Positions 18,920-61,468 of a stretch of 64,000 bases of DNA are shown in pieces (the stretch's first letter is position 1; each line of letters starts with the position of its first letter). Under the pieces are notes generated by a model. It saw only the letters and a list, made by a program, of their open reading frames with translations. It had not been told where the DNA came from and did not search any database. Source of the DNA: a virus (Duplodnaviria > Caudoviricetes); IMG/VR virus record IMGVR_UViG_3300025732_000016; one strand, written 5' to 3'. A program made the position numbers and the translations under genes.

Positions 18920-19249
18920 TCACTCGGTGGAGTAGAGTTCAAATTTCCGGGCCTGGAGCTTCGGGTTCGTGCCCATCTTCTTCTTGTGGAGCTTCATCAC
19001 CTCATTGCGGGCCCAGAACTTCGCGCTCGTCTCGTCGCTGAAGAAGCGCATGGGAGTGTCGCCCTCTCTGTCCTCGGTGGTGATCTTCACGTACCAGCCT
19101 CCCTGGGAGGGCGCAGGGCTCACATCGGCGTGGATGCCGTCCATGTGACGCCAATCCTGCATGACATCCTCAGCGGGTGGGCTGCGCATGTTTCGACCGA
19201 GCTCTTCCCGGATGATGTCCCTGAGAATTCGAAGCGTGTCTTTCTTCAT
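18920..19249 (-). CDS. Hypothetical protein with N-terminal LRxxIREE tag
   Basis: MKKDTLRILRDIIREELG; AATAGTTA 5 nt upstream. Confidence 0.6.
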   Translation of the reverse strand: MKKDTLRILRDIIREELGRNMRSPPAEDVMQDWRHMDGIHADVSPAPSQGGWYVKITTEDREGDTPMRFFSDETSAKFWARNEVMKLHKKKMGTNPKLQARKFELYSTE

Positions 19250-19261
19250 CTCATTAACTAT

Positions 19262-20056
19262 TCAGCGCTTCCTCTCACCGTCACGAAGCGCTTCACAAGC
19301 CTGCCAGAAGATCTCCTCGTCCCTCTCCACGCAGACCCACTTTCGACCGAGGTTCCTTGCCGCCCAAGCTGTCGTCATGGAGCCGGCAAAGGGATCGAAG
19401 ACCCAGTCGCCGGGATTGGTGTTCGTCTCGATCGGTATCTCCATCACTCTCAGCGGCTTCTGTGTCGGGTGGACCTTCCCCTGCATGATCTCGGTGACGT
19501 CCATCCAGACGTTGGTCCGCCGGTAGAACTCTGACTTGCAAACGTAAGTCTTCTTACCTGGTTTCGGGGTATATCCCGGGTACCCCCGTTTCTCTGAGAG
19601 TAACGGAATGTTGAAGGTAATAGGTTTCCTTATGTCACCCTTCACGAGGTACAGGAGGTCTTCCCGTGTTTGGAGATAGTTGTGCTTCACTCCGTAGGCC
19701 CTCTTCTTGGACCAAGTGATGATGTTGGACATCCGCCAAGGGGTCTCGGACTCGAGGCGTGAGACATACTCGAAGAGTGGTCGGAAACCGGGTTTGCCGT
19801 ACCCACCCCACACGTACATTGCGCCACCGTCGACAACCAGCTCGCTGAAGCGGTTTGACCAACTGATCATCCAGTCCGCGAATGACTTCTGGTCCCCGTC
19901 CCACTTGTCCCAGTCCTCGCTGACAAGGTTCCCGTAGGGCGGGTCTGTCGCAACGAGCTTCAGGGGTCCACAGGTTCTCCTGACAAAGTCGACCACCTCA
20001 TCCGAGGCGCAGTCACCCTGAATGGCGTACCCGTCAGGAAATTCGTGTACTAGCAT
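19262..20056 (-). CDS. DNA N6-adenine/N4-cytosine methyltransferase (beta class)
   Basis: DPPY precedes HPTQKP and DPFAGS. Confidence 0.85.
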   Translation of the reverse strand: MLVHEFPDGYAIQGDCASDEVVDFVRRTCGPLKLVATDPPYGNLVSEDWDKWDGDQKSFADWMISWSNRFSELVVDGGAMYVWGGYGKPGFRPLFEYVSRLESETPWRMSNIITWSKKRAYGVKHNYLQTREDLLYLVKGDIRKPITFNIPLLSEKRGYPGYTPKPGKKTYVCKSEFYRRTNVWMDVTEIMQGKVHPTQKPLRVMEIPIETNTNPGDWVFDPFAGSMTTAWAARNLGRKWVCVERDEEIFWQACEALRDGERKR

Positions 20057-20065
20057 CTTAAATGA

Positions 20066-20103
20066 GTAAACCTCCCGAGGCCTGTGTAACCTGGGAGGTT
20101 TAC
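20066..20103 (-). terminator. Intrinsic terminator-like hairpin
   Basis: 11-bp perfect inverted repeat GTAAACCTCCC/GGGAGGTTTAC downstream of hsp20. Confidence 0.6.
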
Positions 20104-20118
20104 GACTAGCTTGGTGAG

Positions 20119-20499
20119 CTACTCTACGGAGATGACCCGCTTTGTCGTCTTCTGAACGGGAACCTCAACGTAGAGAATGCCAGCATCGTAACGTGCCGAG
20201 ATGCCCTCCTGCGTGACATTCTCACCGAGGCTCCAGGAGCGGAAGTAGGTGGACTTCGTGCCGTTCACCTCACGAGTTCCGGTGACGGTGAGGTAGTCAT
20301 TCTCGGTGGAGACCTCGATGTCAGAGCGACTGAGGCCCGGCATCTCCACGGCAATGGAGTAGCCCTTGTCGTTCTCGTTGATCTGTGCACGGGTCTGTAC
20401 GGCCGTCTTCGTGGTGCCACGATTGCTTCGATCGTCGAGGAACGTGTCGAGGAAGGTGTCGAAGCTGGCGTGGGGATTGCGGGTCATGAGGCTGAACAT
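20119..20499 (-). CDS. Small heat-shock protein (Hsp20)
   Basis: EMPGLSRSDIEV, YFRSWSL and ARYDAGILYVEVP; RBS GGAGA before ATG 20499. Confidence 0.85.
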   Translation of the reverse strand: MFSLMTRNPHASFDTFLDTFLDDRSNRGTTKTAVQTRAQINENDKGYSIAVEMPGLSRSDIEVSTENDYLTVTGTREVNGTKSTYFRSWSLGENVTQEGISARYDAGILYVEVPVQKTTKRVISVE

Positions 20500-20555
20500 G
20501 CTGTTTTCTCCTTGTTTCTGGTTGACCGGAGGAACCATTCCTCCATGATCTAAAG

Positions 20556-20819: not shown

Positions 20820-20850
20820 ATAGACGAGATCACCGACCCTTCGCCGAGTC

Positions 20851-21405: not shown

Positions 21406-21468
21406 TCTCCGTTGTGGTTATTCGATCAAAGTGGGCTTGGACCACAGATCGAAAAGATAGGTATACTC

Positions 21469-21774: not shown

Positions 21775-22003
21775 CTTTCCTTGTAGGTTACTCAGGATTG
21801 TGGACCTCTCTCCCTTTCACCTGGTACAACCACCCGGTCACCAGCACCAGTCCAGGGCGCAACTCGCCGCAGAGAAACGACGTTGATAGCGTTATCTGGT
21901 CAGCTATCAAAAACCCAAAGCCCTCAAGTAGGCTTCCTCTGCAGGCACCAGCATTGGCGCCTGAATAAGGTTACTATGGCAGTGTGAAGTTTACACTGAA
22001 CGT

Positions 22004-22011: not shown

Positions 22012-22027
22012 CTTCAGAGGAGTCACA

Positions 22028-22438
22028 ATGTCTTCAAACTGGCCGAAGCCAACTCACAACTACGTTCCCGAGTACCAGCAGTCGGGCATCCCATACGTCA
22101 CAAGCTCTGCAGCGAACGAGGTTGGAGCGACGGCCATCCAAGTCTCGTTCCCCTACGTGACAAGGTGGGTGCAGGTCTTCAACACCGATGGAGTTGCAGG
22201 TGACACAATGAGAGTGGGCTTCACGCAAAATGGTGTGAACTCGATTGAATCTGCAAATTACTTCATCCTGAGCGGTAGCCAGTCCACCGACAGGCTGGAG
22301 CTCAAGTGCACGGGACTGTGGTTCCTGAAGCACGGTGCAAACCCGGCGAGCTTCAGCGTCGTAGCAGGCCTCACGAACGTTCCTGCAGCGGGCTTCCCGA
22401 TCCTCTCAGGCTCCAACGAGGTCGCCGGAGTCGGTTAA
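22028..22438 (+). CDS. Hypothetical beta-rich protein, possibly virion
   Basis: RBS GAGGAG; beta-sandwich-like composition. Confidence 0.6.
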   Translation: MSSNWPKPTHNYVPEYQQSGIPYVTSSAANEVGATAIQVSFPYVTRWVQVFNTDGVAGDTMRVGFTQNGVNSIESANYFILSGSQSTDRLELKCTGLWFLKHGANPASFSVVAGLTNVPAAGFPILSGSNEVAGVG

Positions 22439-26159: not shown

Positions 26160-27254
26160 TCAAGCCAACCTCACAAGTCTGACCCAGTTTGCGTTGATCG
26201 CACCGAGTCCGATGACTTCCTTCTCCTGTGCGAAGAAGTTAACCTCTTCCATCTCAACGTCGTACAGGCCCTCGGCATCGAGAAACTTCCCAGAGTTCTC
26301 TCCTGAGCTCGCTGCAAAGATGACCGAGTATGTGTTGCTTTCCCACTGGCTACGACGACCCAATGAGAAACCGTCAGCGACCTCAATGTCAGATGACCAA
26401 GAGGAAGAGAACCTGTCACCCGTGGGTGTGATCTCGAAATTGCCCCGCAGCTCCTGCTTCCCGCCGTCTGGGTCCAGCTCAGTGATGTCCACTCCCATCC
26501 TCTCGAGCTCATCTAGCGTGAGGGACATCCCGCGGAAGTATGTTCCGGGCGGAGCTTCCCTGAAGACGTCCGTGTAGAGTCCATCCCTGATGAATCCCAT
26601 GATAAGGTTGGCCTGCTGCCTTGTGAGCGGCCTGTTCCCCTCAAAGTGGTTGATGATGGACCGGAGGAGGGCAGACTCAACAGGCGTGTTCCTCTCCATC
26701 GGAGGACGCTTCTTGGCAGCCTGGCGCTGGGGTGAGAATGCGTACTTCCCAAGGGGCGAGCCAATGGGAGCCGTGGGCTCATAGGAGGCGGCATACTCAG
26801 CCTCCTCTCGCTCTGCCCCATCCAGCTCGGCAATCCGGCTCATCCTGAGAATCTCCTTCGACTGGCGCCTCATCTCCTTTCCGATTCTCTCGATGGCTCG
26901 TGAGACCCTGAGGTCCCTCCTGTCATCGTTATCCACGAACTTGACGAGCTGCCTGTAGACACCATCGAGGAACTTTCCACCAGGGTCGAATCCCATGACG
27001 CTCTCGAAGGGGATGTCGGGAGACTCTTCCCTGCCGTACTCATACGTGAACCCGGGAATTGCCTTCTGGAAGATCTCGACGTACTCTCCGTATGTCGGCC
27101 ACCTCCCACTGATGTCCTTGAAGTCGCTTCGCAAGAAGTATCGCCAGAATTCGAAGACACCGTGGATGGAGTCTCCACCTGGGTGCTGGGACTTCGCTTC
27201 GGCGAGGAGGGTCTCGCGGATGAGATGTCGAAGCGTAGACTCAGTGATTCGCAT
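26160..27254 (-). CDS. Putative ADP-ribosyltransferase (R-S-E type) with N-terminal tag
   Basis: YFRGM, SSSWS and QEKEV in the C-terminal domain; N-terminus MRITESTLRHLIRETLLAE. Confidence 0.65.
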   Translation of the reverse strand: MRITESTLRHLIRETLLAEAKSQHPGGDSIHGVFEFWRYFLRSDFKDISGRWPTYGEYVEIFQKAIPGFTYEYGREESPDIPFESVMGFDPGGKFLDGVYRQLVKFVDNDDRRDLRVSRAIERIGKEMRRQSKEILRMSRIAELDGAEREEAEYAASYEPTAPIGSPLGKYAFSPQRQAAKKRPPMERNTPVESALLRSIINHFEGNRPLTRQQANLIMGFIRDGLYTDVFREAPPGTYFRGMSLTLDELERMGVDITELDPDGGKQELRGNFEITPTGDRFSSSWSSDIEVADGFSLGRRSQWESNTYSVIFAASSGENSGKFLDAEGLYDVEMEEVNFFAQEKEVIGLGAINANWVRLVRLA

Positions 27255-27258: not shown

Positions 27259-27858
27259 CTAACTATTCGGCCTCACGCCACTTCGCAGGACAATCTCGCA
27301 GATGTGGTCGAGCCTCTCGATGTGCTCGTACGCCGACCATGGGTCACCCGCCACCGAGCACACCCCGTGGTTCGCCTGACCCACGACATCGAAGGCGAGC
27401 TTCCCGTTCCCGTCCAACATCGCGGAGGCAGTCGCACGTGCCAACTCAGGTGATGTGGCAGGCAGGACCGGGACTGTCGGGCCCACCCTCGTGTACCGGC
27501 TCACCTCAGGGAACTCACTTGCGATCCTCTGCAGGTCCCAGCCTGCGTAGACAGCAGCGACAATGTGGGTCGGATGGACATGGACGACTGCACGGGTGGA
27601 GCTGTTACCCAGCTGGAGGAGACGGTGCATCTCCAGTTCACCGGATGGGCTTGAGTCCTTCGGCACGTCAAGCGTCCCGTCGAAGCCGAACCTCACCTTG
27701 ACGACGTGTTCAGGATGGATGATGGTCTTACGCCAGCCGGAGGGTGTGATGTAGAGTGTCTGAGAACCTCTCTTTCGCAGCGAGATGTTACCGTCCCTCG
27801 TAGTTATCCATCCCTTGTCGTAGCATCTCCTCATCACATCACCGATAGCAGTGAGCAT
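27259..27858 (-). CDS. Class II aldolase/adducin-family protein
   Basis: RDGNIS, ITPSG, PSGELEMH, VVHVHP and NHG motifs. Confidence 0.85.
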   Translation of the reverse strand: MLTAIGDVMRRCYDKGWITTRDGNISLRKRGSQTLYITPSGWRKTIIHPEHVVKVRFGFDGTLDVPKDSSPSGELEMHRLLQLGNSSTRAVVHVHPTHIVAAVYAGWDLQRIASEFPEVSRYTRVGPTVPVLPATSPELARATASAMLDGNGKLAFDVVGQANHGVCSVAGDPWSAYEHIERLDHICEIVLRSGVRPNS

Positions 27859-30246: not shown

Positions 30247-30654
30247 CTACTTCCCTGCCGGCTTCACTCTCAGGATCTGGTCCTCGGTCCTATAGCCGAC
30301 GGGTCCTGAAGGGAAGAAGCGACGCTGCATTGCGTCCCAATCGAAAGTCCTTTCGTTACCACTGTCACCCTTGAATTTCAGGTAGCTCTGGTAAGCCTCG
30401 CCGCTGAGACCCTCGCGGCCTGCTCCGAAGAACTTCGTCATGAGACCGAGACCAGACTTCTCGTCCTCACCGGCCTTTGAGACGAGCCAGTCAATGAAGG
30501 TCCAGGTTCCTTCCATCCCATTGATCTCATACTTTGCGCCCTTCTTCAGGACTTTTGCAAAATTCTTCGCATCAAGCTCGACAAATCCCTCCGCCGCCTC
30601 ACGAAGCAGCTCTTCACGGATGACCTGACGTAGACGTGACTCGGTGATTCTCAT
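30247..30654 (-). CDS. Hypothetical protein with N-terminal tag
   Basis: MRITESRLRQVIREELLRE; AATAGATA upstream. Confidence 0.65.
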   Translation of the reverse strand: MRITESRLRQVIREELLREAAEGFVELDAKNFAKVLKKGAKYEINGMEGTWTFIDWLVSKAGEDEKSGLGLMTKFFGAGREGLSGEAYQSYLKFKGDSGNERTFDWDAMQRRFFPSGPVGYRTEDQILRVKPAGK

Positions 30655-30707
30655 TGCGGTAACCCCATTCTGCTCACTATCTATTCGATGAGCAGCAGAC
30701 TTTATGA

Positions 30708-35333: not shown

Positions 35334-36068
35334 ATGCGCATTGGAATCTTCGGCGGCGGATTCAAGCCGTTCACTTCAGGTCACTTCTCGAAGCTTGCTC
35401 TCGCGTCTGCAGAGAACGATGAGGTCCTCCTCTTCTACGGCATCGCCGAGAGGAAGAAGGGCTCAGACTACCTCTACACGAAGGAGATGGCAGAACAGGT
35501 CTTCGAGATCGCGAAGAGTGCAATCGAAAGAGAGATGCCCAACGTCAATGTCATCAAGGCGAAACCGACTCCCATCGTCATGGCTTTCGAGGCGATACAG
35601 ACGTTTGCGGGAGTTCTCGACGCTCCCAGGTTCTTTCGCTACTCCGACTACGGAATCGACGTGAACAGCATCGACGAGGTGACTCTCTACGGCGACCAGG
35701 AGACGGTGGGAGAGTATCTGGCTTATGCCGATGACCCTGTGAAGGGACCGAGGTACTACGGCACGACTCTACAGGACGGGACCCTCCATTTCGACACGGG
35801 TATGGCGGATGGCGATGATGCGAGAATCATCAACGCAGTCCAGTCCTTCCACCCGGGTTGCAGTCGAGAAGAGGTGAGGGCAAGAAACCTTGTCCGAGGC
35901 TCAGAGGTTCGGGCTTCCATCGCATCCCGCAACCCAGAGGCGATCACTCGCTTCCTCCCACCCATCTACAGCCCTGAGGAGAAGGCGGCGGTGATAGACA
36001 TCCTCTACAGGGGACTCTGCGAGTCCACCCTTCGCAAGACAATCAGAACCATGATACTGGTGGGATGA
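35334..36068 (+). CDS. HIGH-motif nucleotidyltransferase (NMN adenylyl-/cytidylyltransferase-like) with C-terminal tag
   Basis: GIFGGGFKPFTSGH; VRGSEVRASI (KMSKS-equivalent); ends ESTLRKTIRTMIL. Confidence 0.7.
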   Translation: MRIGIFGGGFKPFTSGHFSKLALASAENDEVLLFYGIAERKKGSDYLYTKEMAEQVFEIAKSAIEREMPNVNVIKAKPTPIVMAFEAIQTFAGVLDAPRFFRYSDYGIDVNSIDEVTLYGDQETVGEYLAYADDPVKGPRYYGTTLQDGTLHFDTGMADGDDARIINAVQSFHPGCSREEVRARNLVRGSEVRASIASRNPEAITRFLPPIYSPEEKAAVIDILYRGLCESTLRKTIRTMILVG

Positions 36069-37342
36069 TGATCAGACAGCTTATCCGTGAGATGCTCATG
36101 CTGGAGAACGGTCCCGAGGCCCACATCCTCAACTTCTATGAGGACCTCGACATGCCCCTCTCCGAGTTCAAGGAGGCCATCAGGGCCCTCCTCGATGCCC
36201 AGGTGGAGGACGTCGAGGAGAAGATGGACGGGCAGAATCTCACCTTCACCGTGAGGAACGGCGAGGTGGAGACGTTCTCCAAGGGAGCCTCCTGGGCATC
36301 CGTCCAGCGCGGCGGAAAGAAGATCGCCGACTACGAGGCCCAGTACGCTGACCGTCCGCAGGTGAGGGACGCCTTCAAGAGGGCGTACGCATCCCTCCAG
36401 GCCGCGGCAGATGTCGATCCGGCCCTCACCTCCCGGCTCTTCAGGGACGGCGGAGTGGTGGTGGAGTCCCTCATGATGCTCCCCGAGAACCCCAACACCA
36501 TCGTCTACGACAGGCCCACCATCCGATTCGTGAGGGCCTACCCGATGGACCCGGCGCTCGGTGGACAGGTGGACCAGGAGGCGTACAGACAGTTCCTCGC
36601 TTCAGCTTCCTCGCTGGACGTCGCCGTCCCGATGGGTGAGGTTCCCATCCTGAAACTGAAGAAGGTCCTCAATTCTGACCAGGTCGCAGCCGAACTTGAG
36701 ACAGACCTCGATGCGCTCATGGCCGAGGCCGGTGTCAACGACTCGTCCACCATGGGTGATCTCATTGTCGGACTCGTGAAGACCCGCCTCGAGTCCGATG
36801 GGATGAGTCCTGATGTCGCGACAAAGGTCGCCATCCGTCTCGGTCGCGGTGAGAAGGCGGCGTTCTCCGCGAAGGACGCGAAGGCGGTGGGACCCGGCGT
36901 CTGGGAGAAGGTCCAGGGAATGGAGTCCGGCCCATACGTCGACGAGGCCATCATCCCCATCGAGAGGATCCTCCAGAAGCTCGCCGTCCAGGTCTTCCGC
37001 AACCTGGAGTTCGTCCTCTCCTCCAACCGCACCGAGTCAGGTGACGCTCTTCGATCCTTCGTCCGGCAGACCCGAGACGCAGTGAGGGGCGGGAGGCTCA
37101 TCGCCGACCCATCCCAGACCGAGTCCATCAGGGTTGCACTCGAGAGGATCGGTGACGAGGCAGCATTCGAGAAGGCGGTTGAGGGAATCGTCTTCCGGTG
37201 GAAGGGAAAGACCCGGAAGCTCACCGGACTCTTCACGCCCATCAACAAGCTCCGCGGATTCTTCGCCTATGGTAAGACTCCAGCGAGGATATCGCAGAAT
37301 GAGTCTCGAAAGAGATACTTACCATTCGGAAGGGTCGGATAA
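36065..37342 (+). CDS. ATP-dependent ligase/capping-superfamily-like protein with N-terminal tag
   Basis: Motif I EEKMDG, motif IV EGIVF and motif V RKLTG; begins MMIRQLIREMLMLE. Confidence 0.6.
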   Translation: MMIRQLIREMLMLENGPEAHILNFYEDLDMPLSEFKEAIRALLDAQVEDVEEKMDGQNLTFTVRNGEVETFSKGASWASVQRGGKKIADYEAQYADRPQVRDAFKRAYASLQAAADVDPALTSRLFRDGGVVVESLMMLPENPNTIVYDRPTIRFVRAYPMDPALGGQVDQEAYRQFLASASSLDVAVPMGEVPILKLKKVLNSDQVAAELETDLDALMAEAGVNDSSTMGDLIVGLVKTRLESDGMSPDVATKVAIRLGRGEKAAFSAKDAKAVGPGVWEKVQGMESGPYVDEAIIPIERILQKLAVQVFRNLEFVLSSNRTESGDALRSFVRQTRDAVRGGRLIADPSQTESIRVALERIGDEAAFEKAVEGIVFRWKGKTRKLTGLFTPINKLRGFFAYGKTPARISQNESRKRYLPFGRVG

Positions 37343-37392
37343 TGAGAATCACAGAATCACAGCTTAGAAAGTACGGATCAGGCGGGCACTGA
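37342..37392 (+). pseudogene. Out-of-frame tag fragment MRITESQLRKY upstream of the next gene
   Basis: TAATG-coupled 16-codon ORF that stops 1 nt before ATG 37394. Confidence 0.5.
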
Positions 37393-37393
37393 G

Positions 37394-38200
37394 ATGGGAG
37401 GAGAGGCATTCAAGGGTCCCGACGGAGAGCCACTAGCCACGGGCATAAAGCAGGCAGAGGTTGGTCCGACTCTCGACTCTCTTCTTCGAGATGTCCTCCG
37501 CCCCGTGGGCATCGATTCCTACGTCCCGCTGGGCTCGACGGGCAAGAAGCCGATCTCTAGTGACCTTGACATCGCAGTCGGACCTGTCCCGATGGATGAC
37601 CCGAAGGCTCTGAAGGCTCTGAAGGACGCGCTACTGGCGAACATCCAGGCGGTTGTCGGACCTGACAACGCGAAGCTCGTCGGTCAGAACATCGCGATAC
37701 TTCAGCCCATTGCTGGCTCTCCCGATCGTTTCGTGCAGGTCGATCTCATGCTGTCGGGTGACCCACAGAAGACGGGCTGGCTGATGTCTGGTACGGGTTC
37801 GGGCGTGAAGGGAGTCTATCGCAACCTCATGCTAGCATACATCGCGAAGCTCCGTTCTGAGGAGCAGCCTGGTACCAAGATCACCATCTCATACCCAGGC
37901 GGCATCCAGGTCGTCAAGGATGGGCAGACAGTGGTGCCGAGGACTGAGGACGCGGAAGCGATTGTCTCCACTCTCGGAATCCCTGCGAAGCCCTCAGAGA
38001 TCAATACTTTTGAGGAACTAGTAACCATATTGGCAAGGGACCCGAGCATCTCTGGTAAGCTCGAGGGTTACGAGACATACATCGGAAGGTATCTCCAGGA
38101 TCCGAAAACTGCAGTAGAGGCCCAAAAGTCGATTGCTGCCCTTAAAACAGCTCGCGGTCTCATGGAGACCGTGAGACTGCTGGTTCGCTCTCTCAGGTGA
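37394..38200 (+). CDS. Pol-beta-superfamily nucleotidyltransferase
   Basis: LGSTGKKPISSDLDIAV (GS..DxD) and third Asp in VQVDLM; ends METVRLLVRSLR. Confidence 0.7.
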   Translation: MGGEAFKGPDGEPLATGIKQAEVGPTLDSLLRDVLRPVGIDSYVPLGSTGKKPISSDLDIAVGPVPMDDPKALKALKDALLANIQAVVGPDNAKLVGQNIAILQPIAGSPDRFVQVDLMLSGDPQKTGWLMSGTGSGVKGVYRNLMLAYIAKLRSEEQPGTKITISYPGGIQVVKDGQTVVPRTEDAEAIVSTLGIPAKPSEINTFEELVTILARDPSISGKLEGYETYIGRYLQDPKTAVEAQKSIAALKTARGLMETVRLLVRSLR

Positions 38201-40080: not shown

Positions 40081-40167
40081 TTTGAAGTCCTCCTCTAGAG
40101 GCGGGGTTTCCGCGCTCTAAGGATAACTATCATCGAAGCCGCAGATATAGTTACGATAGGAGTGCAA

Positions 40168-41118
40168 ATGCATAGAAACGAAGCTGTGGTGAGGAGCCTT
40201 ATTCGTGAATGGCTCATAATCGAACAGGCAGCTGATGACGGCGCGAGCGCAGGAGCTGAAGCTGCTGGAGAGCTCAGCGGACTTGGATCTTTGGAGAGCC
40301 AAGTTGATGCTGCTCTCGATAAGATTGAAGACAAGATAGAAGACAAGAGTGAAGCAGTTGTCGCTCTTGCTTTAGGGCTCGGTCTCTCGATCCCCACGCT
40401 CGGAAAGTGGGCCGCAAAGGCAATAGCTCTCATCGTCAAAGGTTACGTCAAGCTCGCATCGAAGTTCGGCAAACCTGAACAGTCTGGTGGGCTTGCGTGG
40501 GCTGCAAAAGTAGAGGCTGCGGGAGAATCCTTCTACGAGAAAGGTCATCACATGATCGAAAGCTTCTATACAAAAATTGTGAAAGCCCTGTTTCTTCTTC
40601 TGTGCGCAATGGGAGACGTGGGAGGAATTGATGCTTACAAAGCTTACGCAGACTCACCAGCGGGACAAGAAGCTTTCACAAAAGTAGCAAAGCTGATCGA
40701 TCTTGCAGTAACGTGTATCCTCGCAGTCTATAGCGTCCAGGGGGCTATCGGAGCGATTCAGGCAGCTCACGCAGGACTCGCCGCGACCGAGGGCGTTCTT
40801 TCTGCTGCAAAGGGAGCGCACATAGGAGCTGCAGTCGCAGAGTCAATAGTAGAGGCTTCTAGAGCATTTGCAAGAGCATTTGCTGAAGCGGGTGTAGCCT
40901 CGGCCCTGATCTCGGACATCATGAAGAAAGCTTCATCTTTCTTCGAAGCCATCAAAGAGACGATTATGGGCGGCATCGAAGTCACTAAAAAGGCTGCTCA
41001 GGCTGCTGGACTCTCAGTTGCTCTCGCTGCAGGATCGGCAGTAGCCAGTGATGCTCCTGCCGACAGTGCTGCCTCTGCGCAGGACAGCGGAGTTGTTAGA
41101 GCTGATTCATCTCGTTGA
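40168..41118 (+). CDS. Ala/Gly-rich membrane-helix protein with N-terminal tag
   Basis: NEAVVRSLIREWLIIE; several hydrophobic helices; TATAGTTA and AGGAG upstream. Confidence 0.6.
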   Translation: MHRNEAVVRSLIREWLIIEQAADDGASAGAEAAGELSGLGSLESQVDAALDKIEDKIEDKSEAVVALALGLGLSIPTLGKWAAKAIALIVKGYVKLASKFGKPEQSGGLAWAAKVEAAGESFYEKGHHMIESFYTKIVKALFLLLCAMGDVGGIDAYKAYADSPAGQEAFTKVAKLIDLAVTCILAVYSVQGAIGAIQAAHAGLAATEGVLSAAKGAHIGAAVAESIVEASRAFARAFAEAGVASALISDIMKKASSFFEAIKETIMGGIEVTKKAAQAAGLSVALAAGSAVASDAPADSAASAQDSGVVRADSSR

Positions 41119-48554: not shown

Positions 48555-48600
48555 ACCTCTATCTATGTTATTCGCGCGTAGAGACTGACGAAAATTCAGA

Positions 48601-48891
48601 TTAAGAGCTGACGGCCTCGACAAAGCGAGAGTCTACCAGAAGACGACCTGCCTCTGACATGCACCAGTAGTACACTCGATTCTCTATCTTGTTCTCAGTG
48701 AGGGTCACCGCGGGCGACTCGACTCTCTCTACGACGAGAGCATTGATGTTTGCGACAATCTTCTTCTTACCCTTCAACTTGAGAGTTCCCTCCCTGGTGT
48801 TCTCTACGCTTGACCAGCCGTAGGGAGGTTCAATGCCTTCACAGTCCCAGGGCACGATGCGCACAATGTCACCATTCTCAAACTTACTCAC
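48601..48891 (-). CDS. Hypothetical SH3-like protein
   Basis: FENGDIVRI; GTGA/ATGA coupling. Confidence 0.55.
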   Translation of the reverse strand: MSKFENGDIVRIVPWDCEGIEPPYGWSSVENTREGTLKLKGKKKIVANINALVVERVESPAVTLTENKIENRVYYWCMSEAGRLLVDSRFVEAVSS

Positions 48892-55738: not shown

Positions 55739-58528
55739 TCATCCGTATGTCGTCATCTGCCCAAGAACTTTCCAGGCAGATCCCGACCTGATGAGGCTGA
55801 ATCCAAACGCGTCCTGTTTGTTCGCAGTGCCCGTCGGAACGACGTTGTTCGCCCAATTTATCGTCTGCGCAGCTCCGTCGATCTGCACGGCATTTACGAC
55901 TCTGGGCGTCGCAGATTGTGAGAGGATCACTGTGGGAGTGATTACTCTCAGGTTGGTAGTCGGCGCGTTGGTGAAATTCGCAGTTACGTTACCGGCTGGG
56001 TTGTTGACATAGAAGACCGACTGCGCCAGCAGATCGAACCCGGTTACTCCTGTGCTGCCGACAGAGTTGGAAAGTCTCTCGACCACCCCGCCGAAGGAGG
56101 TTCTACCATTGACCACAAGATCTCCAACTAGAGTGCCTGTTGAGGTGGGTGACCCCAAGAAGACATTCGTCACTGCACCGCCAATGTTGAGGGTCCCGGT
56201 CAGCACAGTATTGAGGAGGTTGAACGTCGTCGTTGTCGTCGTGGTGAGTACAGATCCCGTGATCGTTACGTCTCCCTGGATGTCGACGTTTCCTGTCTCA
56301 GTGACCCTGAACTGGTTCACGTTGTTGAAGTCCCTGACGGCGAAGAAGTGTCCCGCCCCGTTGTTATTCGCGTCGAGCTTGATCGTTGCGTTACCGCTCG
56401 ACACGAGTTGGATGTCGGTGGCGTCGGTGTTTACAGCGACTATTCCCGTGCTGAGGAAGAGGTCATTGCTGATGGTCGTGCTTCCAAGGAACGTCGGGCC
56501 AGCAGATGCGGAACCGATGAGGATGGTTCCATCGTTTCTCACCTCGAACAGATCTCTGAAGCTCGAGGCGTTGGTGGTCACGTTCCTCACCCTAAACATA
56601 CCAGCGCCTGTCGTGCCGCTTGTCTGGAGCTCAATTCTGCTGTTGACAGCTTGCTGCTGCATCAGGAACTGACCAGCAGTATTCGTTACTGCGCCGTTAC
56701 CGTTGTGTAACATTGTAAGCTGCTGCGCAGTGCCAAAGCGGATCTTTCCTGCCGTTCCAATGTCGATGTCCCTTCCGAAAGCTGTAACTGCTCCAACACC
56801 GGTAGCACCTATGTTTAGGGTAGTTGGTGAGCTTAGCAAATTGAAAGTCGTTGCAGTCGTTGTGATGTCGCCTCCTACGACTGCAAGGTCACCAGTTAGA
56901 CTCAAATTTGAGCCAGTGATGTTTCCACCAATCTGTAGGTCGCTGGATCCACTGATGACACCACCCGTGGAGACGCTAGCGACCACGGCACCTGCGCCGC
57001 TCTTGACCTGGAAAGTTCCCGATGAGACAAGCGAGCCAGCAGAAGATCCTGTGACCACAAGATTTGCAACTAGAGCAGTTCCTGTCCCTTTCACAAACCT
57101 GAAGTCGCTGGTTCCGTTGAAGACTGCCGCATCATTAAACTGGACGTAAGTGTCAGAGCCGCCAGGTGTTCCTGTTGCACCGGCACCAGAAGATGCCACA
57201 GCGCGGAATGAACCAGCCTGCACGATCCTGTATGTAGTTGGATCTGTAAAGTCTAGGCCTGTACCCTTGACGATGACGTAGCCTAAGAATATCGCTGCAT
57301 CTCGGGTGTTTTTGCCCTCAGTGAAGACTTCGGTGGCGATGCCTGCCTGGGCATCAGACAGAGTGGAGTAGATCGTGCTACCGTAGTAGACGTAGAATGC
57401 GCGATTAACAGAGTTCGGAAACCAGTAGACGCGCTGGATCGTGTACTTGTTTCCGGTGCCAACCGTCGTCAGGGTGCCGGCATTGTTGTATTGGGCAAAG
57501 TCGAGGACAGAATATCCGACATTTCCGTTGTTGAGGATGACGTCATCGCCTGACGCATTGACGTACTCATAGAATATCTTCGAGGTGGTCTGTGCTGTGT
57601 CTGTTGTGGAGGAGACGTAGTTCGGGCTATCGGGGTCAACGCTGTAGTTTCGACCCTCAGCGTAGGAATCACCTGCATCCTTCTGAAGTCCCTGTGTTCC
57701 GTTCGCAGAAAGCGTGTGACCGCTGAGCTTGATGGGACCGAAAGCACGGACGAAGTCTCCTCGGAACTGGTTGAGACCGTACGAGACCAAGGGCTGGTTC
57801 ACAGCTCCGTTCGTTCCCACCTTGTCGGTGTGGAGGATCCTACCCAGGACGATGTAGTCGTTGTAGTCGCCGTTAGTGAACGGGATCGACTTCAGGAAGG
57901 GAGTTCCTGTGCTGTCCATCGCGATGTAGGTGATCTGCGTCGTGGAGAGGGAAGGAAGGGCTTGACCGGTGAGAGCGGGCCACGAGACTCGGGTTATCGT
58001 AGGATAGGGTTCATTGGCATCAGCCGTGGAGCTACCGTGAGCGTTGTAGGTGACTATGAGTCCGGAACCCGAGTTGATGTTGTAGGTGGTCGACCCAGAG
58101 GTCGAGGAGAGCGTACCACCCGCCAGGAGGCCCGTGCTGAGACCTGATTCCAACCAGCGGAGGCGGGTCGTGTTGGTATAACCCGTGCCCGGCTGGTATT
58201 GGGTGAAGTAGAGGTCGTTGGTGGAGCCGGACGTGTAGATGTAGCTCGCGGTGGTGTTGGTTGGGATCAGGAGGGTGCCGACCGGCTTCATCTGGATGTA
58301 GGAGTCCGTGCCGAAAGCGCCGGAGACGAAGGTATCGCCGCCGAAGACAGCTACGGGTGTGTCTGCCCCAGTCAATGTCTTTGCACCAGAGACAAAGAGT
58401 TTTACTCCTGATCCGATAGAAGACAGAGTCGGAAATCTTGAGCTCGGCTCATCTGCGATGATGAGAGATCCCGATATTGCTGTAGTGGAAGTTCCGTTGC
58501 TACCTGATACTGTGCCTACGAGAGCCAT
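55739..58528 (-). CDS. Tail fibre / long virion structural protein
   Basis: 929 aa, G/T/S-rich; N-terminus MALVGTVSGSN and GVISGSSDLQ modules shared with 1333-3642. Confidence 0.7.
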   Translation of the reverse strand: MALVGTVSGSNGTSTTAISGSLIIADEPSSRFPTLSSIGSGVKLFVSGAKTLTGADTPVAVFGGDTFVSGAFGTDSYIQMKPVGTLLIPTNTTASYIYTSGSTNDLYFTQYQPGTGYTNTTRLRWLESGLSTGLLAGGTLSSTSGSTTYNINSGSGLIVTYNAHGSSTADANEPYPTITRVSWPALTGQALPSLSTTQITYIAMDSTGTPFLKSIPFTNGDYNDYIVLGRILHTDKVGTNGAVNQPLVSYGLNQFRGDFVRAFGPIKLSGHTLSANGTQGLQKDAGDSYAEGRNYSVDPDSPNYVSSTTDTAQTTSKIFYEYVNASGDDVILNNGNVGYSVLDFAQYNNAGTLTTVGTGNKYTIQRVYWFPNSVNRAFYVYYGSTIYSTLSDAQAGIATEVFTEGKNTRDAAIFLGYVIVKGTGLDFTDPTTYRIVQAGSFRAVASSGAGATGTPGGSDTYVQFNDAAVFNGTSDFRFVKGTGTALVANLVVTGSSAGSLVSSGTFQVKSGAGAVVASVSTGGVISGSSDLQIGGNITGSNLSLTGDLAVVGGDITTTATTFNLLSSPTTLNIGATGVGAVTAFGRDIDIGTAGKIRFGTAQQLTMLHNGNGAVTNTAGQFLMQQQAVNSRIELQTSGTTGAGMFRVRNVTTNASSFRDLFEVRNDGTILIGSASAGPTFLGSTTISNDLFLSTGIVAVNTDATDIQLVSSGNATIKLDANNNGAGHFFAVRDFNNVNQFRVTETGNVDIQGDVTITGSVLTTTTTTTFNLLNTVLTGTLNIGGAVTNVFLGSPTSTGTLVGDLVVNGRTSFGGVVERLSNSVGSTGVTGFDLLAQSVFYVNNPAGNVTANFTNAPTTNLRVITPTVILSQSATPRVVNAVQIDGAAQTINWANNVVPTGTANKQDAFGFSLIRSGSAWKVLGQMTTYG

Positions 58529-58782
58529 GCATCTTACCTCGAGTCTAAATATCAGACTCGGGAAGGAAGTGACTCAGCGAGATAGCATTCCTGGCACTGG
58601 TTCACAGGGCGTGAGGATGTGATCGCGGAGGAAGGTTGCTCGCGTCAGGCCCGGGTCGAGGTACCAGCGGTCACCGCTAGAGCAGAGCCACTCCTCCATC
58701 ACTCGCTTCGTCGAGTGCTCGAATTTCCTCACTCGATAGTATACGTTCTCGGTGACGTCGTGAAACCACTGCTCGTTGTCGT

Positions 58783-59391
58783 TCACTTGAACTCCATGGG
58801 GACTTGCTGAAGGTTGAATCGTGGGATTGCCTTGATGGCGGAGCGGGATACCCGGTCCTGGGGATCGACCCACTGGACGCCGCAGACGCGGAAGTAGTCG
58901 GACTCCTCCCGGACGATCACCTTTCGGCCGTCGGGCAGCGTCGGGTGTCCGCCGAGCATCCGTCCACCGCCGGAGACCTTCTTCCACCGGGAGAACATGC
59001 CGGGGACGAAGCCCTCGTAGGGATTGCCGTCGGGACCGACGCCGGAGCCCGTCCGCATCATGAAGAGGGCGCCCCAGTTCTCGGCCGAGGTGATGAAGAG
59101 GTCGAGCTTGAGCCCGTCGTTGAGCATCATGCGGAGGTAGCGGGCGTTCGCCTTCGGAGCCCAGGGAGTGACCTCGGGGCAGCCGGGCTTGATGAAGTAG
59201 CCCCACTTCTCGAGGGCTCGGAATGCAGGCTCCCAGTCCCGGACCTGAACCACGAGCTCGATGTCCTTCACGTTTGCCTTCATCCGCCGGACGGAACCTG
59301 CGACCTCGGCGCGGTGGCAGTGGGGTCGCAGGTCGGCCACAATCAGGTCCGCGAGGGGCTTGGCAATGTTGATGTCCATTTTGGCCTCCAT
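58783..59391 (-). CDS. Minimal DNA polymerase X (Pol-beta NTase core only)
   Basis: EVAGSVRR..VKDIELV, KLDLF, MRTGS and REESDYF..GVQWVDPQDR. Confidence 0.8.
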   Translation of the reverse strand: MEAKMDINIAKPLADLIVADLRPHCHRAEVAGSVRRMKANVKDIELVVQVRDWEPAFRALEKWGYFIKPGCPEVTPWAPKANARYLRMMLNDGLKLDLFITSAENWGALFMMRTGSGVGPDGNPYEGFVPGMFSRWKKVSGGGRMLGGHPTLPDGRKVIVREESDYFRVCGVQWVDPQDRVSRSAIKAIPRFNLQQVPMEFK

Positions 59392-59543
59392 GATCCTTTA
59401 ATTCATTCTGGACCCGGCGGACACATCTTTTTGAAAGTTTTAGAAAAAGAGCACCAGACCCATCCGTGAACCGCGTCTTCCCTGTGGTGAGCTATAGCAC
59501 TTTGGCGGAGCTTGCGGATTGCAGCGATGGGTAGATGCCGCTA

Positions 59544-60530
59544 TTAGTATCTATCAACCTCTTGAGAGCGAGCCAACGCAATCTCGAGGTCATTGGCCAC
59601 CTTCTGGGCGACGTACTTGTCGACGTGTGGACAGGACCTGATCGCATCGATCGCCTGCTGGGCAATGGGCACTATCATCGTGACACTGTAACCCGGCCTC
59701 TCCCGACCCTTCTCGATCATCTCCATCGCCTCGAACGCTAAGACTCGAGCGTCAGAGTCCTCTGGACAGCCCGCTTCCTCGAGATCCATGTCCGCAGTCT
59801 CAAGGGCAGTGATGAACTCTGTCGTCTGGAGCTGCTCGAGGTCCCTCCCGGCGACCATCTCACCGGCTTCGGAAATGGAGCGTCTCCGACGCCGAGACTC
59901 GACTGTCCCCCTCGAATCGAGTATCGTGAGGACGCGACCCGTCGTCATCTTACCCCGAGCCCAGTCCTCGAACACTTTCCTGAAGAGGTACCGCTGCTCG
60001 TCAAGCTCTCTCTTCCAGATGTCCTTTGTCTCGGGTGAGAGGGTCCTCTCAAGCTCGTCAAGCTTCCCGAGGACCTTACTCTTCAGGTTCTCGAAAGCCT
60101 TTCCGATAGGGTGGTTCGGGTCACGAGCGTAGTCAGAGCCAGGGTCCATGCTCGCATGACTCCTCTGCGCCTGCTTGTAGTTCTCCCAGACCATCCGGTA
60201 CTCTGGGAGAGTGTGAAGCATACCGAAGAAAGAGTGATAACGATCGATGATCTTGTCGTCGCCTGTCCTCTCAAGACGCTGCGTTGTCGTGGGACCGAAC
60301 ATATCAGCAAGAACAGTCATCAGGCCTTTAATGGCATTACCCGACATCGTCGCATGGATGAGACCCCACTCCCGAATGAGCTCTCTCCTGATGATTGAGC
60401 GCAGCGCGGCCTCACCGATATCGAGAGTCTTTGGGTAGCCCTTTTCTCCCGGACGAGCCGGACGCTCTCCGCGCTTTCTTTTAGCGCGGATGTTGTGCCA
60501 GAGTCCCTTATTTTTCTTTGCTTCGTTCAT
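59544..60530 (-). CDS. Hypothetical protein with basic N-terminal module and internal tag
   Basis: GLWHNIRAKRKRGERPARPGEKGYP followed by EAALRSIIRRELIRE. Confidence 0.6.
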   Translation of the reverse strand: MNEAKKNKGLWHNIRAKRKRGERPARPGEKGYPKTLDIGEAALRSIIRRELIREWGLIHATMSGNAIKGLMTVLADMFGPTTTQRLERTGDDKIIDRYHSFFGMLHTLPEYRMVWENYKQAQRSHASMDPGSDYARDPNHPIGKAFENLKSKVLGKLDELERTLSPETKDIWKRELDEQRYLFRKVFEDWARGKMTTGRVLTILDSRGTVESRRRRRSISEAGEMVAGRDLEQLQTTEFITALETADMDLEEAGCPEDSDARVLAFEAMEMIEKGRERPGYSVTMIVPIAQQAIDAIRSCPHVDKYVAQKVANDLEIALARSQEVDRY

Positions 60531-61468
60531 CTCTTTATCCCCGCGAGGTAGCTCCACCTCTCCATGATCATGTCGTCCTCGAGTCTTCTGTTTTCAGAAA
60601 TTCCACGAGGGTCAAGGTCCTCATCGGAGCCCTCATATGACTTGTTCGGAAACTCTGGGCTCGCTTCATCGTGAGCAAACTCACCAGGACCGTAGATGTG
60701 AAGTTCCGAAGGTACCTTCGATGCCACCGCGGCTTCGACCTCTTTCGTGTTCTTTTCCAGGTCGTCGTAGAAATGGACTTCTTCAGGAGAGCCGCCGGGT
60801 TCACTCAAGTACTTCTTGATGATTGCGATACCCTTGTTCTGACCAGTGACCCCCATCACCCCGTCAGTGGGTTTTGCTCCCAGTCTCGAAAGAAACTGCT
60901 CCATGTCCTGGGAGTTAGTGGCGGGCACGGGATTTCCGTGAAAGTCGGTGCCGACACCGTCAGCCTTCCTCGCAGTGATGACTATCGTGTCAGACCCCTG
61001 GGCGTTTGCTCGTCTCAGCTTGTTGACAGTCGGCTCGATGGGCTGGGTGTTTTCCGTGTCGGTGCCCGATGAAGGAGTGAAGTCGATGAGTATCGTCTCT
61101 CCTGGCTGGTTGACCTTGTCCGCGAAACCTGTGGTCACTCCCTGTTTGGCAGGCGGGAAAGCTTTCTGGACCCTGCCCAGGCCGGACGAGTTGAGGTACA
61201 CCGCCATCCCGTTTTCTCTCTCAGGGATCGGTACGATACCTGGTGGGAGGATTGCGCTCATGGGGACCCCGAGGGAAGAGAGCCACTGCTTGACATCGGC
61301 TTCTGTCTTGTGAGCGGGAGAACCGTCATTGTAGAGCATCACGCCGTTCGCGTTGACCGTGAGACCGAGAGTGTCGTCAAAGTCGAAGACATGCACCTGC
61401 TTGTCAGGCGGTGCGTCTCCCGGTATTGCGTCCTCGAAGAGGATGTCTACAAGCTTCCTGCGTTTCAT
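60527..61468 (-). CDS. HAD-superfamily phosphatase-like protein
   Basis: FDFDDTL, ITAR, NKG and FYDD; terminal MKRRKLVDILFE and ERWSYLAGI helices. Confidence 0.7.
   Translation of the reverse strand: MKRRKLVDILFEDAIPGDAPPDKQVHVFDFDDTLGLTVNANGVMLYNDGSPAHKTEADVKQWLSSLGVPMSAILPPGIVPIPERENGMAVYLNSSGLGRVQKAFPPAKQGVTTGFADKVNQPGETILIDFTPSSGTDTENTQPIEPTVNKLRRANAQGSDTIVITARKADGVGTDFHGNPVPATNSQDMEQFLSRLGAKPTDGVMGVTGQNKGIAIIKKYLSEPGGSPEEVHFYDDLEKNTKEVEAAVASKVPSELHIYGPGEFAHDEASPEFPNKSYEGSDEDLDPRGISENRRLEDDMIMERWSYLAGIKR

What the first reader, a model, noticed from the sequence alone, without database searches (positions are those of the whole stretch)
18920..61468. Shared helical tag on unrelated enzymes: a candidate capsid-loading and injection system
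Seen: about nine unrelated ORFs carry the same short amphipathic helix. Examples are MRITESTLRHLIRETLLAE (26160-27254), MRITESRLRQVIREELLRE (30247-30654), MKKDTLRILRDIIREE (18920-19249), MMIRQLIREMLMLE (36065), MRITESQLRKY (37342), NEAVVRSLIREWLIIE (40168) and internal EAALRSIIRRELIRE (59544-60530). C-terminal variants are ESTLRKTIRTMIL (35334) and METVRLLVRSLR (37394); MKRRKLVDILFE (60527) is weaker. Four of the tagged genes (18920, 26160, 30247, 40168) sit directly behind the ATANWTA box. Established: T4 internal proteins and Alt use an N-terminal capsid-targeting peptide, and gp21 cleaves after Glu in (L/I)-X-E; the tags are full of such sites (IRE, LAE, LRE, IIE, LFE). Inference: the tag is a modular address label that loads an ADP-ribosyltransferase, nucleotidyltransferases, a phosphatase and a membrane protein into the head for injection with the DNA.
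Basis: partly seen in the sequence, partly recalled or inferred. Interest (0 to 1): 0.85.

Follow-up and report, generated by a model that had tools for sequence, protein, structure and literature searches.

The report
Shared leader peptide on phage proteins
An uncultured marine jumbo phage with a T4-type head puts the same ~16-residue helical leader (MRITESQLRxIIREE) on many unrelated proteins, most likely as a cut-off address label that loads them into the capsid, which would let injected phage proteins be listed from sequence alone.

Summary
A profile built only from relatives recovers six copies in the window: 30654-, 27254-, the 16-codon remnant at 37342+, 19249-, an internal copy in 59544-60557, and 36065+. 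The copy at 40168 and the C-terminal copy on 35334 are weak. The C-end of 37394 and the N-end of 60527 do not match.

The leader is widespread. There are 632 protein clusters at E<=1e-3 among 1.84 billion, almost all starting at Met1. In the best 150 hits, 135 tagged bodies fall into 95 unrelated groups.

The leader is an add-on. In the ligase-like family it is present, absent, or internal after a fused domain, and it always ends hydrophobic-x-Glu just before the conserved body.

Related contigs encode a T4-type portal, S77 prohead protease and gp23 capsid protein. Their small head-core proteins start with leader-like sequences. The ATAGTTA-type box lies before structural genes and is enriched before tagged genes.

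Gene 60527 also carries the scaffold protein's C-terminal RWxxLAGI motif.

Best reading (about 0.55): a T4-CTS-like capsid-targeting propeptide. Packaging, cleavage and injection are untested.

Earlier first-stage notes flagged the same leader in other windows of this genome.

The parts
30247..30654 (-). 135-aa protein of unknown fold. Leader MRITESRLRQVIREELLRE is at 30598-30654.
   Evidence: 39.1 bits with a model holding no window rows. The leader is kept in homologues P0001-P0003.
26160..27254 (-). 364-aa protein. It has the leader (27198-27254), a helical N-domain and a C-terminal ADP-ribosyltransferase-like domain.
   Evidence: 38.3 bits. R241-G-M, S284-S-W and E344-x-E346 are invariant in 23 homologues. 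The AlphaFold2 model has pLDDT 85. The top Foldseek PDB hits are nearly all ARTs, best E 6e-3.
18920..19249 (-). 109-aa protein with the leader variant MKKDTLRILRDIIREELGRN.
   Evidence: 13.1 bits with the independent model. The G001 homologue also carries LLRLLIREEIGRN.
36065..37342 (+). 425-aa ligase-like enzyme (KxDG motif, DUF6267-like) with a short leader MMIRQLIREMLMLEN at 36065-36109.
   Evidence: 8.1 bits. Across the family the leader is present, absent or internal, and it ends right before the conserved GPEAHILNFYED. Pfam RNA_ligase is a weak hit at E 0.002. The Atlas search points to DUF6267.
37342..37392 (+). 16-codon ORF MRITESQLRKYGSGGH*. It is a remnant of the small tagged genes that occupy this slot in relatives.
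   Evidence: 24.1 bits over leader positions 1-10. It is out of frame with the NTase at 37394. L005 has one intact tagged small gene here, L006 has two, and L001/L022 have five.
40168..41118 (+). 316-aa Ala/Gly-rich protein with two hydrophobic segments. It carries a weak leader MHRNEAVVRSLIREWLIIE.
   Evidence: Only 4.2 bits with the independent model. The leader is at Met1, lies behind an ATAGTTA box, and is conserved in the L005 homologue.
59544..60557 (-). 337-aa protein with an internal leader EAALRSIIRRELIRE (60366-60425) after a basic N-terminal mini-domain.
   Evidence: 9.5 bits. The L005 homologue starts directly with the leader MRNYEKHLRNVIRESLLNE. The N-terminal mini-domain hits five PHROGs of unknown function.
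35334..36068 (+). 244-aa HIGH-motif nucleotidyltransferase-like protein with a C-terminal leader-like helix ESTLRKTIRTMILVG (36021-36065).
   Evidence: 6.7 bits. The helix is kept in close relatives and preceded by L-C-E. P0191 is a natural fusion of this domain with the ligase-like domain.
37394..38200 (+). 268-aa pol-beta-type NTase-like protein. Its C-terminal helix METVRLLVRSLR does not match the profile.
   Evidence: Negative score. In relatives the C-end varies but is always preceded by L-x-E. The Atlas neighbours include NTP_transf_2 and DNA pol beta palm.
60527..61468 (-). 313-aa HAD-type (DxDxT) phosphatase-like protein. It has a 20-aa N-terminal extension (MKRRKLVDILFE) and the scaffold-type C-terminal motif ERWSYLAGIKR (60530-60562).
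   Evidence: Pfam DUF2608 at 27.6 bits and PHROG polynucleotide kinase. RWxxLAGI ends the scaffold-position protein in G001-G004 and in Flavobacterium phage immuto, and ends this protein and its L005 homologue. The G001 homologue lacks both extensions.
19255..19261 (-). ATAGTTA box 12 nt upstream of gene 18920.
27260..27266 (-). ATAGTTA box 12 nt upstream of gene 26160, inside the end of the aldolase gene.
30678..30684 (-). ATAGATA box 30 nt upstream of gene 30247.
40147..40153 (+). ATAGTTA box 21 nt upstream of the ATG at 40168.

Best explanation
The leader (consensus M-R/K-I-T-E-S-Q-L-R-x-I-I/V-R-E-E-L, then a Gly/Pro/Ala-rich linker near residue 23) is a capsid-targeting propeptide of the T4 CTS kind.

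Proposed mechanism (all steps inferred unless marked):
1. Tagged genes are transcribed late from the ATAGTTA-type promoter, together with the head genes.
2. The helix binds the assembling scaffold core, whose own small core proteins start with similar sequences.
3. After the shell closes, the S77 (gp21-type) prohead protease cuts after Glu in (I/V)-R-E14, and often again at L-x-E19/21. This frees the cargo inside the head.
4. The cargo leaves with the DNA at infection.

A second, separate label, the C-terminal RWxxLAGI motif shared with the scaffold protein, marks gene 60527.

Shown here: the leader's reality, its N-terminal position, its modularity and its wide spread; the T4-type head genes in relatives; the association with the box.

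Inferred: binding to the core, cleavage, packaging and injection.
For: - Position and spread. There are 632 clusters at E<=1e-3, and about nine in ten of the best 150 start at residue 1. In that set, 135 tagged bodies form 95 BLAST-unrelated groups. Few have a Pfam hit; those that do include ART-PolyVal, PolyA_pol, HD, GNAT and pentapeptide repeats.
- Modularity. In the ligase-like family the leader is present, absent or internal, and it ends hydrophobic-x-E just before the conserved body. The G001 homologues of g36065 and g60527 lack the extensions.
- Head type. Related contigs with 4-12 leaders each at E<=1e-3 encode Portal_T4, Peptidase_S77 and Gp23.
- Cleavage logic. (L/I/V/M)-x-E sites sit at E5 (128/138), E14 (114/138) and E19/21 (85/138). 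A site in residues 10-25 occurs in 99% of leaders against 32% of untagged N-termini. In T4, gp21 cuts after Glu, and the CTS MKTYQEFIAE uses residues 4 and 7 for targeting and 8 and 10 for processing (PMC9026906, PMC8442874). The pattern Y-x-x-F-I-x-E parallels L8-x-x-I11-I12-x-E14, the most conserved leader positions.
- Link to the core. Small genes between protease and scaffold start MSKxVxLTPxLLRRI(I/V)LEEKK and MALxRSxLKDI(I/V)KEC. In T4 the CTS likewise resembles the N-ends of gp22, gp24 and gp67.
- Timing. The box precedes scaffold, portal and sheath-like genes. It precedes 18 of 51 tagged genes against 22 of 328 untagged genes, Fisher p 1.5e-7. In the window, 10 of 13 boxes lie within 50 nt upstream of a gene start.
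- Gene arrays. Tandem, fast-changing arrays of small tagged genes recall the variable internal-protein genes of T-even phages (PMC3012670).
- Alt-like cargo. g26160 has an ART fold and the ART motifs.
- Structure. The leader is a separate helix on a low-confidence linker.
Against: - No virion proteomics exist, and no cultured phage carrying the leader was found.
- Cargo bodies are not basic like T4 internal proteins. The median pI is 5.8.
- The head-core proteins match the profile only weakly, at 3.8-8.4 bits.
- Only about a third of tagged genes have their own box. The loci counted overlap in part, so the p-value is optimistic.
- The box is called a late promoter only from its position before structural genes.
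- The fit to (L/I)-x-E is partly circular, because the leader is defined by that sequence.
- The head genes were seen in relatives, not in this window. The more distant relatives differ in G+C (46% against 55%).
- Twenty or more tagged proteins per genome, including ligase-like and NMNAT-like enzymes, have no precedent as capsid cargo.
- The hydrophobic moment is unremarkable.
Confidence: 0.55

Rival explanations
1. The leader is a docking or oligomerisation helix for another common partner or place, not the capsid. Examples are a phage or host chaperone, a protease used as a timed degron, the membrane, or a replication or translation factory.
For: It is a short free helix on a flexible linker. 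Cargo includes cytoplasmic-type enzymes such as ligase-like, NMNAT-like and HD proteins. The bodies are mostly acidic. Internal copies occur in multi-domain proteins.
Against: No partner is suggested by gene neighbourhood. The leader is associated with the box that precedes head and tail genes. Head-core proteins have leader-like starts. The Glu-ended boundary lies exactly at the body start. No BMC shell genes are present.
Confidence: 0.2
2. The leader has no sorting role. It is the conserved 5' end of a fast-evolving gene-cassette family, kept because the shared DNA serves as a recombination site for swapping genes between co-infecting phages, or because it gives efficient translation starts.
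For: Within arrays the first 21 nt (ATGAGAATCACAGAGTCACAG) are nearly invariant, and whole leaders are 80-96% identical in DNA. The locus between the ligase-like gene and the NTase gene gains and loses tagged genes between phages whose flanking ligase-like protein is 96-97% identical. The window keeps only a 16-codon remnant there.
Against: The residues are kept through synonymous changes. Third codon positions are 73% identical for identical residues within one lineage, and the codons differ outright in non-array genes. The peptide is kept in phages of 46% and 55% G+C and as a Lys-rich version in a 484-kb phage. It also occurs internally and always borders the folded body. A recombination role and a sorting role could coexist.
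Confidence: 0.12
3. The tagged proteins are structural parts of the scaffold core itself and are degraded and expelled at maturation. They are not cargo kept for injection.
For: The leader resembles the starts of head-core proteins and a helix near the scaffold N-end. The leaders carry several cleavage-type sites.
Against: The bodies are enzymes and highly diverse small proteins, unlike scaffold proteins. The genes lie mostly outside the head module.
Confidence: 0.08

Closest known systems
T4 capsid targeting sequence (CTS, MKTYQEFIAE) of internal proteins IPI-III and Alt
   Same: Both are short N-terminal leaders shared by otherwise unrelated proteins in a phage with a gp20/gp21/gp22/gp23-type head. 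Both end in hydrophobic-x-Glu, share the pattern hydrophobic-x-x-hydrophobic-hydrophobic-x-E, and resemble the N-ends of the phage's own core proteins. In both, the cargo genes are variable and one cargo is an ADP-ribosyltransferase (PMC9026906, PMC3012670, PMC8442874).
   Different: The leader is about 16 residues against 10, with a different consensus and no detectable homology. There are dozens of cargo genes per genome against about six in T4. Cargo is mostly not basic. Internal copies and multi-leader proteins occur. No experimental evidence exists here.
Propeptides of phiKZ, 201phi2-1 and SPN3US head and ejection proteins
   Same: These are jumbo phages with many head proteins that are processed after Glu by a gp21-related protease. 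Their propeptides hold several cleavage sites, and paralogues share conserved N-termini (PMC5694885, PMC9026906).
   Different: Those propeptides are often longer than 100 residues, the motif is S/A/G-x-E, and no single portable consensus leader has been described. The head genes here are closer to T4's.
Cargo-loading peptides of encapsulins and encapsulation peptides of bacterial microcompartments
   Same: These are also short terminal helices on flexible linkers that address unrelated enzymes to a protein shell. For encapsulins the shell has the HK97 fold. This comparison rests on my own knowledge and was not tested here.
   Different: Those peptides are not removed by a protease. Encapsulin peptides are C-terminal. 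No BMC shell gene is present in relatives. The only shell available here is the phage capsid.
Scaffold C-terminal coat-binding segments (for example P22 scaffolding protein)
   Same: The RWxxLAGI motif at the extreme C-end of the scaffold-position protein is re-used on the enzyme encoded by gene 60527. This suggests mimicry of a shell-binding end.
   Different: The motif has a different sequence from known examples. T4 gp22 ends differently. Binding to the capsid protein was not tested.

Membership tests
T4-type capsid targeting propeptide (CTS) | A short N-terminal leader shared by otherwise unrelated proteins of one phage. | tested here: met
   Six copies in the window. Among the best 150 metagenome hits, 135 tagged bodies fall into 95 unrelated groups.
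T4-type capsid targeting propeptide (CTS) | The phage builds a T4-type prohead: gp20 portal, gp21/S77 protease, scaffold and gp23 capsid protein. | tested here: met
   Found in leader-bearing relatives G001-G004. The window holds no head module and its own genome is not held.
T4-type capsid targeting propeptide (CTS) | The leader ends in the protease's cleavage motif, hydrophobic-x-Glu. | tested here: met
   (I/V)-R-E14 occurs in 114 of 138 leaders, and 99% have a site in residues 10-25. The boundary sits just before the conserved body. This is a match of pattern only.
T4-type capsid targeting propeptide (CTS) | Sequence relatedness to MKTYQEFIAE. | tested here: inconclusive
   Only the 7-residue pattern hydrophobic-x-x-hydrophobic-hydrophobic-x-E is shared (PMC8442874). 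That is too short to show homology.
T4-type capsid targeting propeptide (CTS) | Cargo genes are expressed with the head genes. | tested here: inconclusive
   The box is shared with scaffold, portal and sheath-like genes and is enriched before tagged genes. No transcript data were used.
T4-type capsid targeting propeptide (CTS) | The leader is removed by the prohead protease and the cargo is present in virions. | not testable with these tools
   This needs virion mass spectrometry with N-terminomics. No cultured member was found.
T4-type capsid targeting propeptide (CTS) | The leader is sufficient to package a foreign protein. | not testable with these tools
   This needs a reporter fusion experiment.
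R-S-E ADP-ribosyltransferases (for g26160) | Catalytic Arg, Ser-x-Ser and Glu-x-Glu in that order on an ART fold. | tested here: met
   R241, S284-S285 and E344-x-E346 are invariant in 23 homologues. Foldseek hits are nearly all ARTs, although the best E-value is only 6e-3.
R-S-E ADP-ribosyltransferases (for g26160) | Match to a curated ART family model. | tested here: not met
   g26160 has no Pfam or PHROG hit.
Bacterial microcompartment encapsulation peptides | BMC shell proteins are encoded alongside. | tested here: not met
   PF00936 is absent from G001-G005. The one hit is below threshold and contains a stop codon.

The most novel reading that the evidence does not exclude
The leader is a universal, portable capsid-loading signal of a large uncultured clade of T4-headed jumbo phages. 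On this reading the 600 or more tagged protein clusters are a directly readable catalogue of proteins injected with the DNA, mostly unknown small proteins that are likely counter-defence and takeover factors. Multi-leader proteins would be polyproteins cut apart by the prohead protease. A second label, the C-terminal RWxxLAGI scaffold mimic, would address cargo to the shell rather than the core.
Probability: 0.4. Interest if true: 0.8.

Novelty: new variant of a known kind. Interest (0 to 1): 0.66.

Why it matters
If the leader is a capsid address label, injected proteins of uncultured jumbo phages could be listed from sequence alone. At present that needs virion proteomics of cultured phages.

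The tagged set is large (632 clusters), and about nine in ten of the best 150 hits have no known domain. This is the profile expected of counter-defence and host-takeover factors.

The leader would also be a candidate packaging tag for phage engineering, as the T4 CTS already is.

If the capsid reading is wrong, a leader conserved on so many unrelated phage proteins still needs an explanation.

Tried and rejected
- **Whole genome.** The window's genome is not held, so its head genes could not be read. I used related viral contigs instead.
- **Cultured phages.** tblastn of g26160, of the leader and of a Lys-rich leader against 50,697 phage records found nothing except the uncultured record LR756508.1. 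The leader profile found nothing in Flavobacterium phage immuto, Microcystis phage Mel-JY01, XacN1, RsoM2USA, RM378 or LR756511.
- **Family searches.** Pfam and PHROGs left most window cargo unnamed.
- **Complex prediction.** The G004 scaffold was tested against the first 45 residues of a tagged protein. The result was no verdict: score 0.00, both chains poorly folded. It counts neither for nor against binding.
- **Microcompartment idea.** The leader looks like PduP/PduD-type peptides from my memory. I dropped this reading because no BMC shell gene is present.
- **RNA or translation element.** I rejected this reading because synonymous codons vary while residues are kept.
- **Amphipathicity.** The hydrophobic moment gave no support for a classical amphipathic helix.
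- **Scaffold C-end.** tblastn of the 40-residue scaffold C-end found nothing; the query is too short.
- **Literature.** No paper holds the leader strings, and none reports a CTS-like leader from metagenomic jumbo phages.

Full report
**What the window is**

The window is 64 kb at about 55% G+C. It carries a tmRNA and 19 tRNA genes and a PrkA/YeaH-like/SpoVR operon. It also encodes a helicase, an ATP-dependent ligase, PhoH, a topoisomerase subunit, an acyl-CoA dehydrogenase and a 1216-aa OmpA/TSP3 protein.

No whole genome is held for it. Close relatives are marine metagenome and IMG/VR contigs whose ligase-like protein is 96-97% identical. More distant relatives reach 257 kb at an estimated 76% completeness. 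This is a jumbo phage.

**Is the motif real?**

None of 20 shuffles of the window gave a hit of 12 bits or more. In leave-one-out tests the omitted copy was always the best non-training hit.

The cleanest test uses a model built only from relatives:

| Copy | Score (bits) |
|---|---|
| g30247 | 39.1 |
| g26160 | 38.3 |
| 16-codon ORF at 37342 | 24.1 |
| g18920 | 13.1 |
| internal copy in g59544 | 9.5 |
| g36065 | 8.1 |
| best noise | 5.4 or less |
| C-end of g35334 | 6.7 |
| g40168 | 4.2 |
| C-end of g37394 | negative |
| N-end of g60527 | negative |

MRITESQLRKY at 37342 ends in TGA after 16 codons. It is out of frame with the NTase at 37394.

The copies use different codons for the same residues: CGA/AGA, ACT/ACC/ACA, GAG/GAA and CTT/CTA. 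The conservation is therefore in the peptide.

**How widespread is it?**

A degenerate DNA pattern for the leader found 15 stretches of viral-contig DNA, on 13 different contigs. An alignment of 35 leaders gives the consensus MRITESQLRxIIREEL, with nothing conserved after about residue 16.

That profile finds 4-12 copies at E<=1e-3 in each of five large contigs. Against 1.84 billion representative proteins it finds 632 clusters at E<=1e-3. About nine in ten of the best 150 start at residue 1.

Among those 150, 135 N-tagged bodies of 40 residues or more fall into 95 BLAST-unrelated groups, 82 of them singletons. Only about ten have a Pfam hit: ART-PolyVal, PolyA_pol, HD, GNAT, pentapeptide repeats, tRNA_lig_CPD and a few others.

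A 484-kb uncultured phage record (LR756508.1) carries a Lys-rich version on nearly every gene of tandem arrays flanking its capsid gene.

No paper in the library holds the leader strings.

**The leader is an add-on**

The ligase-like family of g36065 has a conserved body start, GPEAHILNFYED. Three arrangements occur:
- Some homologues begin within a few residues of that point, for example MAPLGHILNFYED.
- Many carry the leader.
- Others carry it internally, after a fused N-terminal domain of about 280 residues.

In every tagged case the leader ends hydrophobic-x-Glu plus a short Gly-rich linker, just before the body.

Other homologue pairs show the same modularity:
- The G001 homologues of g36065 and g60527 lack the N-terminal extensions.
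- The L005 homologue of g59544 starts with the leader, whereas the window's copy has a basic mini-domain in front of it.

AlphaFold2 models the leader of g26160 as a helix (residues 5-18) on a low-confidence linker, detached from the body.

**Link to a T4-type head**

Leader-bearing contigs G001-G004 encode Portal_T4, Peptidase_S77 (the gp21 family) and Gp23.

Between protease and scaffold lie small genes that start MSKxVxLTPxLLRRI(I/V)LEEKK and MALxRSxLKDI(I/V)KEC. These look like the leader by eye but score only 3.8-8.4 bits against the profile. In G003 a 402-aa protein with a full leader lies inside the structural module.

In T4 the CTS MKTYQEFIAE (PMC8442874) likewise resembles the N-ends of gp22 (MLKEQLIAE), gp24 (MAKINELLRE) and gp67.

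For the T4 CTS, targeting depends mainly on residues 4 and 7 and processing on residues 8 and 10 (PMC9026906). The pattern Y-x-x-F-I-x-E parallels L8-x-x-I11-I12-x-E14, which are the best-conserved leader positions.

Sites of the form (L/I/V/M)-x-E sit at E5, E14 and E19/21. A site in residues 10-25 occurs in 99% of leaders against 32% of untagged N-termini. This comparison is partly circular, because the leader is defined by this sequence.

**Timing**

The box ATA(G/T)(A/T)TA lies 22-33 nt upstream of the scaffold, portal and sheath-like genes in relatives.

In the window, 10 of 13 occurrences lie within 50 nt upstream of a gene start. Four of these are tagged genes. The others include a paralogue of a head-module gene, a fibre-like gene and the OmpA/TSP3 gene.

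Across loci, 18 of 51 tagged genes have the box against 22 of 328 untagged genes, Fisher p 1.5e-7. Some of the loci counted overlap. Calling the box a late promoter is an inference from these positions and from the T4 late promoter.

**Cargo in the window**

- **g26160.** Arg241, Ser284-Ser285 and Glu344-x-Glu346 are invariant across 23 homologues. Its model's best PDB matches are almost all ADP-ribosyltransferases, although the best E-value is only 6e-3. This recalls T4 Alt.
- **g36065.** It is ligase-like, with a KxDG motif and DUF6267-type neighbours.
- **g37394.** It resembles pol-beta-type NTases, at the level of a lead only.
- **g35334.** It has a HIGH-type motif and a weak NMNAT PHROG hit.
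- **g60527.** It has the HAD motif DxDxT and hits DUF2608 and a polynucleotide kinase PHROG.
- **g40168.** It is Ala/Gly-rich with two hydrophobic segments.

**A second label**

The motif (D/E)RWxxLAGI ends the scaffold-position protein in G001-G004. It also ends the gene before the capsid gene in Flavobacterium phage immuto. And it ends g60527 (…MIMERWSYLAGIKR) and its L005 homologue. I confirmed it on relatives and on this window's gene.

**C-terminal copies**

The C-end of g35334 is conserved in close relatives and preceded by L-C-E. The C-end of g37394 varies but is always preceded by L-x-E.

T4 Alt is also processed at its C-end (PMC9026906), so C-terminal labels are possible.

However, P0191 is a natural fusion of the g35334-type and g36065-type domains. 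The helix at the end of g35334 may therefore be a relic of a split at that junction.

**Arrays**

Between the ligase-like and NTase genes, relatives carry one to five small tagged genes. The window keeps only a 16-codon remnant.

Within arrays the first 21 nt are nearly invariant and the leaders are 80-96% identical in DNA. The leader may therefore also serve recombination. Multi-leader proteins occur in metagenomes, both with and without a Met before the internal copy.

**Verdict**

The motif is real, modular and very widespread. A T4-CTS-like capsid-targeting propeptide is the best explanation, at about 0.55. Packaging, cleavage and injection remain untested.

Points against this reading:
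- Cargo bodies are mostly acidic or neutral.
- There are many cargo genes per genome.
- No cultured member exists.
- The hydrophobic moment is unremarkable.

No BMC shell genes are present, which removes the microcompartment alternative.

Noticed in passing
window 37342-37393; L005:5486-5704; L006:9263-9888; L022:5669-7000: The slot between the ligase-like and NTase genes is hyperplastic. Relatives carry one to five small tagged genes there, although the flanking ligase-like protein is 96-97% identical. The window keeps only a 16-codon remnant.
   Followed up: partly
window 60530-60562 (-); L029:10554-12395; L040 (immuto35A_203): The motif (D/E)RWxxLAGI ends the scaffold-position protein in four relatives and in Flavobacterium phage immuto, where the gene is annotated 'DNA polymerase phi-like'. 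It also ends the HAD-type enzyme of gene 60527.
   Followed up: partly
window 35334-37342; P0191: The NMNAT-like and ligase-like genes overlap by ATGA here but form one 665-aa polypeptide in other phages. P0191 is 49% identical to the first and 57% identical to the second. Other homologues carry a different N-terminal domain (P0188).
   Followed up: partly
window 22028-22438 (+): This 136-aa protein (MSSNWPKPTHNYVPEYQQ...) is a paralogue of a gene that lies next to the prohead protease in G004 (L029:14411-14815). It sits behind its own ATAGTTA box.
   Followed up: no
window 60420-60530 (-): A basic mini-domain (KGLWHNIRAKRKRGERPARPGEKGYP) at the N-end of g59544 hits five PHROGs of unknown function at different positions in those proteins. 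It appears to be a mobile module.
   Followed up: no
window 1333-3642 (-) and 55739-58528 (-): Two long paralogues (769 and 929 aa) share the start MALVG(S/T)VSGSN and have lower third-position G+C than most other long ORFs. They are probably fibre-like. The longer one lies behind an ATATTTA box.
   Followed up: no
window 48554-48572 (-): An ATAGATA box lies about 12 nt upstream of the in-frame MRKILLSLLF. This suggests that the true start of the OmpA/TSP3 protein is there, not at the TTG at 48623.
   Followed up: no
window 10154-14585 (-): A PrkA, 391-aa and SpoVR operon (a stress/sporulation-type kinase set) is carried by the phage.
   Followed up: no
P0029, P0030, P0031, P0123, P0136 (metagenome proteins): These proteins carry two or three leaders. 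Some internal copies keep the Met and others have it replaced by Lys or Gln. They are possible polyproteins or in-frame fusions of array genes.
   Followed up: partly
G001:C1:1-2011, 181405-182730, 254095-256475: Five paralogues start MTHLLRSLIRETLLLEEVYGAQAVVYHGTGA. They sit at both ends and in the middle of the 257-kb contig, so a leader-bearing family has expanded within one phage.
   Followed up: no
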